Source: a virus (Duplodnaviria > Heunggongvirae > Uroviricota > Caudoviricetes). From it: a DNA stretch of 27,901 bases. A program made the position numbers and the translations under genes. The DNA lies in the IMG/VR virus record IMGVR_UViG_3300001765_000297. One strand, 5' to 3'. Within the stretch, counting starts at the first letter, position 1; the number at the start of each line of letters is the position of its first letter. Under the pieces are notes generated by a model that was given only the letters and a program-made list of their open reading frames with translations, did no database searches and was not told the origin of the DNA. Shown here piece after piece: positions 4,685-5,035 of the stretch.

Positions 4685-5035
4685 ATGAAAAAAGTTGACG
4701 AAGGTATTGGCTAGGTTAAATTAGTTACAGTAACAAGAAAGGACATCAGTCCTGGTTATCAATTAGCGCAGACCCTACACAGTAGTAGTAGATTTGCATA
4801 TCATCATCCCGAACTCCACAGGGAATGGATTGAACAATCCGAATATGTCGTTTCATTATCAATCGATAATGAAGAAAAACTCAAGAGATTATATTATAAA
4901 TTGCTAGACAATGGTGCTAGTGTCGTAGCTTTTCACGAACCCGACATTGACAACCAATTGACTAGTATTTGCTATTACGGTACTCCGGAGTTAAGAAAAA
5001 TTACAAATAAATTAGAACTCGCACTTAATAATTAA
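4685..5035 (+). CDS. PTH2-fold (peptidyl-tRNA hydrolase 2-like) protein requiring readthrough of in-frame TAG at 4712-4714
   Basis: Manual translation MKKVDEGIG*VKLVTVTRKDISPGYQLAQTLHSSSRFAYHHPELHREWIEQSEYVVSLSIDNEEKLKRLYYKLLDNGASVVAFHEPDIDNQLTSICYYGTPELRKITNKLELALNN*. KL.xVxRxD..G..xAQxxH...W...VV.L pattern of PTH2-like proteins; no in-frame start codon near the TAG. Confidence 0.75.

What the first reader, a model, noticed from the sequence alone, without database searches (positions are those of the whole stretch)
4685..5035. Hidden PTH2-fold gene whose only plausible start lies upstream of an in-frame TAG
Seen: a 350-nt gap in the ORF track is filled exactly by ATG(4685)-9 codons-TAG-106 codons-TAA. 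It has a TATTTATA motif upstream and the next gene starts 4 nt later. The first in-frame alternative start after the TAG is a TTG more than halfway in. The frame is otherwise intact, arguing against decay. The usual PTH2 GK and DAG motifs appear as GYQ and EPD, so hydrolase activity is not assured. Inference: production depends on readthrough, a logical feedback for a protein acting on peptidyl-tRNA when termination is perturbed.
Basis: partly seen in the sequence, partly recalled or inferred. Interest (0 to 1): 0.85.

Follow-up and report, generated by a model that had tools for sequence, protein, structure and literature searches.

The report
Suppressor-tRNA-gated phage PTH2-like gene
A phage gene for a peptidyl-tRNA-hydrolase-like protein keeps a stop codon just after its start, and the phage's own neighbouring stop-reading tRNA can read it; about ninety phage lineages that otherwise use the normal genetic code share this pairing, so it looks like a natural translational switch.

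Summary
ATG 4685, nine codons, TAG 4712-4714, 106 codons, TAA 5033-5035; the next usual start is a TTG 63 codons after the TAG.

The gene is real: dN/dS is 0.10-0.33, and a confident model has the Pth2 fold (TM 0.73-0.78).

This finding did not mention an amber-suppressor tRNA (anticodon CUA) at 4010-4083, same strand.

Among 94 distinct relatives, 88 carry one early in-frame stop before the first strand. The stop always matches a suppressor tRNA of the same phage:
- TAG with CUA in at least 71 relatives.
- TAA with UUA in three independent lineages.
- TGA with UCA in one lineage.
- No mismatches.

Two complete relatives (362 and 322 kb) use the standard code elsewhere, so this is a dedicated gate, not genome-wide recoding.

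A second gated element lies at 5341-5382: a short leader ORF with an internal TAG, ending Arg-Pro-Pro-stop. It recurs in 44 of 94 loci, and its internal stop also switches to TAA in the TAA lineages.

Nothing is experimental. tRNA charging, the inserted residue and the enzyme's activity are unknown, and the Pth2 catalytic Lys is absent.

This scan found the same module earlier on other DNA. I found no paper describing it.

The parts
4010..4083 (+). Amber-suppressor tRNA, anticodon CUA, canonical cloverleaf, no encoded CCA
   Evidence: ARAGORN. Rfam tRNA 61.3 bits against a gathering score of 29. 15 of 21 stem pairs show compensatory double changes among 8 related suppressor tRNAs, and the loop CTCTAAA is kept.
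4098..4637 (+). Small serine recombinase/invertase gene lying between the tRNA and the gated gene. It is context, not a conserved part of the module.
   Evidence: Pfam Resolvase E 2e-29; phrog_125 DNA invertase. In relative L004 the tRNA lies only 185 nt upstream of the gate.
4658..4675 (+). A/T-rich upstream motifs: TATTTATA at 4658-4665 and CAATTAAA at 4668-4675. Function not shown.
   Evidence: Sequence. CAATTAAA also precedes the ATGs at 5341 and 5466, but its count in the window is not above chance (8 found, 6.3 expected).
4685..4711 (+). Start codon and eight further codons (MKKVDEGIG) ahead of the gate; a disordered N-terminal tail
   Evidence: In the AlphaFold model residues 1-7 have pLDDT below 50. 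Relatives have 1-15 codons here.
4712..4714 (+). In-frame TAG, the gate, followed by GTT
   Evidence: The stop is conserved at this place in 88 of 94 distinct homologues. The next two bases are purine then T in 37 of 39 and 39 of 39 contexts.
4715..5035 (+). Body of the PTH2-fold protein (106 codons) and its TAA
   Evidence: pLDDT 91.9, pTM 0.85. Foldseek top hits are archaeal Pth2 and human Bit1. phrog_1866 E 2.7e-12; Pfam PTH2 20.1 bits, below the cut-off of 23. dN/dS 0.10-0.33.
5040..5300 (+). 86-aa ORF starting 4 nt after the gated gene; function unknown
   Evidence: no significant family. It is not among the most widely conserved neighbours.
5341..5382 (+). Second gated element: leader mini-ORF MIMKET-[TAG 5359-5361]-IHTRPP-TAA
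   Evidence: The pattern occurs once each in 44 of 94 loci on the gene strand, against 1 hit on the opposite strand. It occurs exactly once in each of two complete genomes of 362 and 322 kb. It always lies 48-147 nt upstream of an ORF. Its internal stop is TAA in all three TAA-gated lineages.
5466..5801 (+). 111-aa gene behind the leader; the most widely conserved neighbour of the gated gene; function unknown
   Evidence: The family is present in 33 loci. It follows the leader in 24 loci. Model pLDDT 91: a helical hairpin plus a small sheet, with no PDB or Pfam match.

Best explanation
Bases 4685-5035 encode a functional PTH2-fold protein. Its translation starts at ATG 4685 and must pass an in-frame UAG at codon 10. 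The protein is therefore made only while, and in proportion as, the suppressor tRNA out-competes release factor 1. If termination wins, only a 9-residue peptide results. The gate sits in a disordered tail before the first strand, so whichever amino acid the tRNA carries should be tolerated. The same tRNA also gates a short leader ORF (5341-5382) that ends Arg-Pro-Pro-stop, in front of a conserved 111-aa gene. Together they form a small suppressor-dependent gene set in a phage that otherwise uses TAG as a stop. What the protein does is inference. The most likely role is hydrolysis of peptidyl-tRNA (or aminoacyl-tRNA) that accumulates when termination is perturbed by suppression or by stalling at Pro-Pro-stop. 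This could act as clean-up that scales with suppression, or as negative feedback on the suppressor's charged pool.
For: Shown:
- The frame behind the TAG is under purifying selection: dN/dS 0.10-0.33 at dS of about 1.
- The fold is Pth2.
- The tRNA is genuine and structurally constrained.
- 88 of 94 distinct homologues have exactly one in-frame stop, 1-15 codons after ATG, and none in the body.
- The stop type matches a suppressor anticodon in the same phage: TAG/CUA in at least 71 genes; TAA/UUA in L003, L136 and L149; TGA/UCA in L144/L150. There are no mismatches.
- On the protein tree the three TAA cases need three separate changes.
- The leader ORF's internal stop also switches to TAA in those three lineages.
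- Two complete relatives are not recoded. TerL frames are open. TAG rarely joins long open segments, and it ends 15 of 267 and 16 of 217 long ORFs. Each genome has a single suppressor tRNA.
- The PTH2-like gene is the only convincing early-TAG gene in G001.
- The pairing extends to about 206 cultured cluster C mycobacteriophages. Alice gp150 has ATG-TAG-GTG and an annotated 'tRNA-suppressor (cta)' 250 nt downstream.
Against: - There is no experimental evidence. Expression, charging and the identity of the inserted residue are unknown.
- The 'Q' seen in database homologues is an artefact of translation with TAG=Q.
- Comparing the suppressor tRNAs with ordinary phage tRNAs gave no clear parent isoacceptor.
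- The rest of the window's own genome is not available, so recoding of its late genes is excluded only by proxy.
- In mycobacteriophages a GTG directly follows the TAG at good Shine-Dalgarno spacing and is the annotated start, so the gate may be bypassed there.
- Two ungated homologues still have a CUA tRNA nearby (L056, L172). 12-14 gated genes had no suppressor within the DNA held.
- The Pth2 catalytic Lys is absent in the whole family, and the window protein scores below Pfam's cut-off, so hydrolase activity is not assured.
Confidence: 0.8

Rival explanations
1. Ordinary genome-wide recoding: the phage reads TAG as an amino acid (code 15, as in crAss-like and Lak phages), and this TAG is just one recoded codon among many.
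For: A suppressor tRNA(CUA) is present. TAG is a rare terminator in this A/T-rich window: 2 of 35 ORFs of at least 100 aa. The window holds only early or metabolic genes, so late genes of this particular phage were not seen. Some pipelines already translate relatives with TAG=Q.
Against: Reading TAG as sense raises coding density no more than reading TGA as sense, in the window and in about 50 loci. Two complete relatives show no excess of TAG between long open segments, and TAG terminates 15-16 long ORFs in each. TerL has no internal stops in 5 complete relatives. Random recoding would not keep exactly one stop at the same N-terminal place across homologues down to about 30% identity.
Confidence: 0.06
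2. The ATG-x-TAG is a tiny upstream ORF. The real protein starts by re-initiation or non-canonical initiation at the codon right after the stop. The tRNA is nearby only because the gene lies in a tRNA cluster.
For: The codon after the stop is almost always of the form purine-T-N: ATT 13, GTA 9, GTT 8, GTG 2. In mycobacteriophages it is GTG at ideal Shine-Dalgarno spacing and is the annotated start. Many loci do hold tRNA arrays.
Against: In the window the codon is GTT. In 18 of 39 contexts it is GTA, GTT or GTC, which are not known initiators. A terminator of an upstream ORF could be any stop, yet the stop type tracks the suppressor anticodon through four independent switches, and the leader ORF switches with it. 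The same purine-T context follows the TAG inside the leader ORF, where no protein start is at issue. That points to a decoding context.
Confidence: 0.08
3. Decaying gene or assembly error: a recent nonsense mutation in a gene that is no longer made.
For: A single C-to-T change could create a TAG from CAG. The window protein falls below Pfam's PTH2 cut-off.
Against: dN/dS is 0.10-0.33 behind the stop. The stop is conserved in 88 of 94 distinct genes from independent samples. There are no further stops or frameshifts.
Confidence: 0.01
4. The UAG encodes pyrrolysine or another non-standard residue (ARAGORN labels the tRNA 'Pyl').
For: Only the anticodon CUA.
Against: The tRNA fits the general tRNA model end to end at 61 bits with a normal cloverleaf. 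Suppressor tRNAs of close relatives have unrelated backbones, which argues against a dedicated synthetase pair. No Pyl genes were seen among the window's annotated ORFs, though not every ORF was scanned.
Confidence: 0.01

Closest known systems
Stop-codon recoding in phages with phage-encoded suppressor tRNAs (code 15, TAG to Gln; crAss-like, Lak and other gut phages). Borges et al., bioRxiv 10.1101/2021.08.26.457843; Peters et al. 2022, PMC9523058.
   Same: A phage-encoded tRNA(CUA) makes an in-frame TAG readable in a standard-code host. In-frame stops are proposed there too as a way to delay or condition translation.
   Different: In those phages many genes, chiefly structural and lysis genes, carry scattered recoded stops. 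Here the genomes keep the standard code, and the stop is a single, positionally conserved codon at the N-terminus of one gene family, plus one leader ORF. The preprint does not contain the word 'hydrolase'.
prfB (release factor 2) autoregulation through an early in-frame UGA (established knowledge, from memory)
   Same: An early in-frame stop in the mRNA of a translation-termination-related protein makes its synthesis report on how that stop is being decoded.
   Different: prfB is bypassed by a +1 frameshift, and the sensed factor is its own product.
Archaeal and eukaryotic peptidyl-tRNA hydrolase 2 (PDB 2zv3 MJ0051, 1wn2, 3erj, 1xty, human Bit1 1q7s)
   Same: Same fold over the whole length: TM 0.73-0.78, 19-24% identity. 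Shared R-x-D-L and Q-x-x-H motifs, and an acidic residue at the D-A-G position.
   Different: The G-K-G-K loop is two residues shorter and has no Lys; the site holds Y, Q, A, V, I, L or S. D-A-G is replaced by an invariant E-P-D. The Pfam score is below the cut-off for the window protein.
Cluster C mycobacteriophages (Alice gp150 'peptidyl-tRNA hydrolase' with gene 151 'tRNA-suppressor (cta)'; Myrna gp84)
   Same: A homologous protein (29-35% identity) has a TAG at its very start and a CUA tRNA 130-250 nt downstream. These are cultured phages in which the module could be tested.
   Different: The arrangement is start-TAG-GTG, and the GTG after the TAG is the annotated start at good Shine-Dalgarno spacing. 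Dependence on suppression is less certain there than in the window, where GTT follows the TAG.
Orphan suppressor tRNAs of standard-code phages (Xanthomonas jumbo phage XacN1, PMC5852040; zeta crAss-like clade 8, PMC12386605)
   Same: Phages with CUA tRNAs but no recoding. The XacN1 authors state they could not identify target genes. The zeta crAss paper notes CTA tRNAs with 'no suppression' in those genomes and lists an aminoacyl-tRNA hydrolase gene.
   Different: Those papers name no target. Here a conserved target is identified. XacN1's own hydrolase is not a detectable homologue of this family.
Arrest-peptide and Pro-stop leaders (SecM RAGP, ApdA/ApdP RAPP, TnaC; lambda bar minigenes and Pth), from memory
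   Same: The neighbouring leader ORF ends R-P-P-stop, R-A-P-P-stop or K-P-P-stop. These motifs are known to slow termination and to generate peptidyl-tRNA.
   Different: Here the stalling motif is reached only after read-through of an internal UAG. Stalling itself was not tested.

Membership tests
PTH2 peptidyl-tRNA hydrolase (Pfam PF01981) | Sequence match above the family's curated cut-off | tested here: inconclusive
   The window protein scores 20.1 bits, E 7.7e-4, against a cut-off of 23. Many close homologues carry a precomputed PF01981 hit. The family profile matches Pth2 chain 2zv3 at E 3e-4.
PTH2 peptidyl-tRNA hydrolase (Pfam PF01981) | Pth2 alpha/beta fold | tested here: met
   Model pLDDT 91.9. 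The 15 best PDB matches are all Pth2 or Pth2-like, TM 0.59-0.78, E down to 3.7e-7; the next hit has E 0.5.
PTH2 peptidyl-tRNA hydrolase (Pfam PF01981) | Lys of the G-K-G-K loop. Its catalytic role in S. solfataricus Pth2 is recalled from memory. | tested here: not met
   HMMER aligns a two-residue deletion and Tyr at this site. Across the family the site holds Y, Q, A, V, I, L or S, never a conserved Lys.
PTH2 peptidyl-tRNA hydrolase (Pfam PF01981) | Acidic residue of the D-A-G motif | tested here: inconclusive
   Aligned to the invariant Glu of F-x-E-P-D. The charge is kept but the residue differs.
PTH2 peptidyl-tRNA hydrolase (Pfam PF01981) | Hydrolysis of peptidyl-tRNA | not testable with these tools
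   Needs an enzyme assay or pth(ts) complementation.
Alternatively coded (code 15) phage | In-frame TAG in many genes, especially structural and lysis genes | tested here: not met
   Window and about 50 loci: no gain over the TGA control. Complete relatives G001 and G003: TAG joins two open segments of at least 100 codons 1 and 2 times (TGA 1 and 2; TAA 18 and 18). TerL has no stops in 5 genomes. The window's own late genes were not available.
Alternatively coded (code 15) phage | Phage-encoded suppressor tRNA for the recoded stop | tested here: met
   tRNA(CUA) at 4010-4083.
prfB-type autoregulatory in-frame stop | Conserved early in-frame stop in the gene's own mRNA | tested here: met
   88 of 94 distinct homologues.
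prfB-type autoregulatory in-frame stop | Bypass by programmed frameshift, and a product that itself acts on that stop | tested here: not met
   The frame is continuous across the TAG, so no shift is needed. Whether the product acts on UAG decoding cannot be tested here.
tRNA (Rfam RF00005) | Full-length match to the covariance model, with covariation in the stems | tested here: met
   61.3 bits over model positions 1-71. 15 of 21 pairs show compensatory changes.
Arrest-peptide leader (SecM/ApdA/TnaC type), for the neighbouring mini-ORF 5341-5382 | Short ORF ending in a Pro-rich stalling motif just upstream of a regulated gene | tested here: met
   Ends RPP, RAPP or KPP followed by a stop in 44 of 94 loci, 48-147 nt upstream of an ORF.
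Arrest-peptide leader (SecM/ApdA/TnaC type), for the neighbouring mini-ORF 5341-5382 | Ribosome stalling that changes expression of the downstream gene | not testable with these tools
   Needs toeprinting or reporter assays.

The most novel reading that the evidence does not exclude
The tRNA, the gated PTH2-like gene and the gated Arg-Pro-Pro-stop leader form a self-contained circuit that measures and sets the level of stop-codon suppression in the infected cell. The PTH2-like enzyme would hydrolyse the suppressor's own aminoacyl- or peptidyl-tRNA, or peptidyl-tRNA dropped from ribosomes stalled after read-through. Because its synthesis needs that same tRNA, suppression would be held at a set point. 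This would be a trans-acting analogue of prfB autoregulation. It would also be the reason why standard-code phages from Bacteroidota-type to mycobacterial hosts carry otherwise 'orphan' suppressor tRNAs.
Probability: 0.22. Interest if true: 0.9.

Novelty: new variant of a known kind. Interest (0 to 1): 0.8.

Why it matters
Suppressor tRNAs in phages that do not use an alternative code have had no known target (stated for XacN1, PMC5852040; noted for zeta crAss-like phages, PMC12386605). This module supplies one: a conserved gene, and a conserved leader, that can be read only by that tRNA.

- It gives a natural example of a tRNA acting as a dedicated translational switch.
- It offers a possible stepping stone between standard-code and recoded phages.
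- It corrects a systematic annotation error. Gene callers either truncate this gene, start it after the stop, or silently translate TAG as Gln.
- Because about 200 cultured mycobacteriophages carry the module, the idea can be tested directly at the bench.

Tried and rejected
- Whole genome of the window: none is held.
- Megablast of 5 kb against GenBank phages: no match.
- 'Q' at the gate position in database homologues as evidence for Gln: rejected, because P0010 translates only with TAG=Q. DNA for P0004's contigs was not available.
- Isoacceptor origin of the suppressor tRNAs by nearest neighbour among 335 phage tRNAs: no consistent answer.
- Fold and sequence searches for the 111-aa neighbour: no match. 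The 81-aa gated neighbour has no Pfam or PHROG family.
- XacN1's hydrolase as a member of this family: not detectable by tblastn with two queries.
- CAATTAAA as a module-specific upstream motif: its count in the window is at chance level.
- Read-through of the TAG that ends the methyltransferase gene: the profile score rises by only 2.6 bits, and there is no homologue in five relatives to compare. Left open.
- GTDB genomes: only 7 loci, all MAG contigs, and two of them are huge phage genomes filed as CPR/DPANN bins. This gave no evidence for a cellular home of the family.
- Complex prediction and the search of protein representatives were not used. No binding claim is made, and the library has no DNA context.

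Full report
**The observation**

The window reads ATG (4685), eight more codons, TAG (4712-4714), 106 sense codons, TAA (5033-5035).
- The codon after the TAG is GTT.
- The first ATG/GTG/TTG in frame after the TAG is the TTG at 4901, 63 codons in.
- The next gene's ATG is at 5040.
- TATTTATA lies at 4658-4665.

**Context**

The window has about 31% G+C and looks like part of a large phage. It carries these genes:
- a ribosomal bL12 gene
- a GMP-reductase/IMPDH-like gene
- a dNMP kinase
- a metallophosphoesterase
- a DNA methyltransferase
- a small serine recombinase

No structural genes are in the window, and no whole genome is held for it.

The key feature not mentioned in this finding is a tRNA with anticodon CUA at 4010-4083, on the same strand.
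- ARAGORN calls it.
- It matches the Rfam tRNA model end to end at 61.3 bits.
- Among eight related suppressor tRNAs, 15 of 21 stem pairs keep pairing through changes on both sides, while the anticodon loop stays the same.
- It is a real, constrained amber-suppressor tRNA.

**The gene is real and has the Pth2 fold**
- Against nine relatives, the frame behind the TAG has dN/dS of 0.10-0.33 at dS of about 1.
- An AlphaFold model built on 43 homologues has pLDDT 91.9 and pTM 0.85. Residues 1-7 are disordered and the first strand is at residues 12-18, so the gate (residue 10) sits in the tail just ahead of the fold.
- The 15 best PDB matches are all Pth2 or Pth2-like: 2zv3, 1wn2, 3erj, 1q7s (Bit1), 1xty and others, with TM up to 0.78 and E down to 3.7e-7. 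The next hit has E 0.5.
- By sequence the match is weak. Pfam PTH2 gives 20.1 bits against a cut-off of 23. The family profile matches 2zv3 at E 3e-4.
- The family keeps R-x-D, Q-x-x-H, F-x-E-P-D and a Thr invariant.
- The G-K-G-K loop is shortened and has no Lys. D-A-G is replaced by E-P-D.
- It is therefore a divergent Pth2-superfamily protein whose chemistry cannot be assumed.

**The gate is conserved**

176 database homologues were found. In the alignment they seemed to have Gln at the TAG position. That is an artefact: P0010 translates to the stored protein only with TAG=Q. Other entries are simply truncated at the next start.

I therefore went to DNA, using these sources:
- two scans of IMG/VR (309 relatives in the second, 80 kept)
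- one ENA contig
- GenBank phages
- GTDB genomes

Together they gave 94 distinct gene sequences.
- 88 have one in-frame stop 1-15 codons after an ATG and no other stop in the body. The typical form is M-K-stop-V-K-L-V-T-V.
- Four are plainly ungated.
- As background, about 3% of long open segments in a complete relative show such an arrangement by chance.

**The stop matches the tRNA**
- TAG gates have a CUA tRNA in the DNA held in 65 genes, plus 4 with an ambiguous inner ATG. Fetching more DNA found one for two more, L112 and L121.
- The three TAA-gated genes each have a UUA tRNA: L003 and L136 within 1 kb, and L149 at 19 kb, where it is the nearest tRNA in a 675-kb record.
- The TGA-gated pair L144/L150 has a UCA tRNA 2.6-3.2 kb away on the opposite strand.
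- No gate is paired only with the wrong suppressor.
- On a maximum-likelihood tree of the proteins, the three TAA cases need three separate changes, and well-supported branches force all three. The TGA case is a fourth switch.
- A CUA tRNA cannot read UAA, so these co-switches are what a functional coupling predicts.
- The suppressor tRNAs themselves are very diverse, with 36 distinct sequences. Close relatives of the window use unrelated backbones: the window and L004 share one type, and L001, L003 and L005 share another.
- This fits a gate placed where any residue is tolerated.

**This is not genome-wide recoding**
- Reading TAG as sense adds no more coding density than reading TGA as sense, in the window and in about 50 loci.
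- I fetched two complete relatives whole: G001 (362,763 bp) and G003 (321,624 bp). G003 lies in the same clade as the window.
- Each has one suppressor tRNA, directly beside the gated gene, and a tmRNA.
- TAG joins two open segments of at least 100 codons once and twice. The figures for TGA are 1 and 2, and for TAA 18 and 18.
- TAG ends 15 of 267 and 16 of 217 long ORFs.
- TerL is an open frame without stops in five complete relatives.
- In G001 the PTH2-like gene is the only convincing early-TAG gene.
- In the window, TAG ends several ORFs.

**A second gated element**

- The pattern M, up to 8 residues, stop, 1-10 residues, Pro-Pro, stop occurs once each in 44 of 94 loci on the gene strand. 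It occurs once in total on the opposite strand.
- It occurs exactly once in each of the two complete genomes, next to the gated gene.
- The internal stop is TAG in 43 of 44, and the final stop is TAA in 41 of 44.
- The peptides end RPP, RAPP, KPP or KAPP.
- It always lies 48-147 nt upstream of an ORF. In 24 loci that ORF belongs to the family of the window's 111-aa gene 5466-5801. This family is also the most widely conserved neighbour of the gated gene, present in 33 loci.
- In all three TAA-gated lineages the leader's internal stop is TAA as well.
- Anticodon, gene gate and leader gate therefore co-vary.
- In one clade an 81-aa gene directly downstream has also acquired an M-K-TAG-I start.

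**Decoding context**

The gate is followed by purine-T in 37 of 39 distinct contexts: ATT 13, GTA 9, GTT 8. The same bias is seen after the TAG of the leader. From memory, a purine 3' of UAG favours suppression over release in E. coli.

GTA, GTT and GTC are not initiation codons. This argues against the rival in which the protein starts right after the stop. That rival also cannot explain why the stop type tracks the anticodon.

The rival stays alive for cluster C mycobacteriophages. About 206 GenBank records carry a homologue annotated as peptidyl-tRNA hydrolase.
- In Alice the arrangement is GAAGGC-ATG-TAG-GTG, with the GTG as the annotated start and a 'tRNA-suppressor (cta)' 250 nt downstream.
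- In Myrna it is GGAGGC-GTG-TAG-GTG, with a CUA tRNA 130 nt downstream that the record calls tRNA-Ser.

**How it most likely works**

Shown:
- a selected Pth2-fold gene
- a conserved early stop
- a cognate, constrained suppressor tRNA nearby
- covariation across four switches
- standard code elsewhere in two complete relatives
- a second co-varying gated leader

Inferred:
- The tRNA is made and charged.
- It competes with RF1 at the gate.
- The protein, and the gene behind the leader, are made only then.
- The protein handles peptidyl- or aminoacyl-tRNA produced when termination is perturbed.
- Whether this is clean-up that scales with suppression, or a feedback that limits suppression, cannot be decided here.

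**Literature and earlier notes**
- Seven full-text searches found no description of the gate.
- Iyer et al. 2021 note PTH2 in jumbo phages without the stop.
- The XacN1 paper says no targets of its CUA tRNAs could be identified.
- A zeta crAss-like paper notes CTA tRNAs in genomes without suppression.
- Borges et al. propose that suppressor acquisition precedes recoding.
- This scan has reported the same module several times on other DNA. My conclusions rest on the tests above.

**Limits**

The inserted residue is unknown. The window's own late genes were not seen. Enzyme activity is unproven, and one Pth2 catalytic residue is missing.

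Noticed in passing
window 5341-5382 (TAG at 5359-5361) and 5466-5801: Leader mini-ORF with an internal TAG, ending Arg-Pro-Pro-TAA, 83 nt upstream of a conserved 111-aa gene of unknown fold family. It is conserved in 44 of 94 loci and unique in two complete genomes. Its internal stop switches to TAA in the TAA-gated lineages.
   Followed up: yes
L127:2929-3174, also L116, L124, L128, L135, L163: An 81-aa gene directly downstream of the PTH2-like gene starts M-K-TAG-I in one clade but has a normal ATG start in other lineages. 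It has no Pfam or PHROG family.
   Followed up: partly
L012:~9210-9980, L105, L106, L131: Homing-endonuclease-like ORFs (treble-clef plus DUF559/Vsr-like) sit just upstream of the PTH2-like gene. They begin with a copy of its gated 5' end (M-x-TAG-V-K-L-V-T...), as if inserted at the gene's start.
   Followed up: no
window 4098-4637: A small serine recombinase/invertase gene lies between the suppressor tRNA and the gated gene, starting 14 nt after the tRNA. Close relatives have the tRNA 150-330 nt from the gate without it.
   Followed up: no
window 3309-3599 and 3600-3869: Two ORFs (96 and 89 aa) are in the same frame, separated only by TAG followed at once by ATG. Read-through would fuse them into one 186-aa product. 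Both are conserved neighbours in 11 and 18 loci.
   Followed up: no
window 25114-25812: The DNA methyltransferase gene ends at TAG. Reading through adds 11 residues, and the PHROG profile match lengthens slightly (196.6 to 199.2 bits). The TAG is followed by GAT, not the purine-T context of the gates.
   Followed up: partly
window 17816-17887 (-): Rfam finds a third tRNA-like element (44.4 bits) that ARAGORN does not call, next to a tRNA-Ser(GGA) at 17651-17723.
   Followed up: no
L166 (JBAZIW010000001.1) and L167 (JBBACR010000001.1): Single contigs of 362,763 and 425,361 bp are deposited as a Candidatus Paceibacterota bacterium MAG and a Pacearchaeota archaeon MAG. They have the same lengths as IMG/VR huge-phage records and carry the phage module and tRNA arrays, so they are probably mis-binned phages.
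   Followed up: partly
L084:2963-3034 (Mycobacterium phage Myrna, gene 86): Annotated as tRNA-Ser in the record, but ARAGORN reads the anticodon as CTA. It lies 130 nt downstream of the PTH2-like gp84.
   Followed up: partly
G001 206983-207347 and G003 132007-132367 (complete relatives): Both complete relatives encode a tmRNA besides 46-55 tRNAs. This means a ribosome-rescue function travels with the suppressor module.
   Followed up: no
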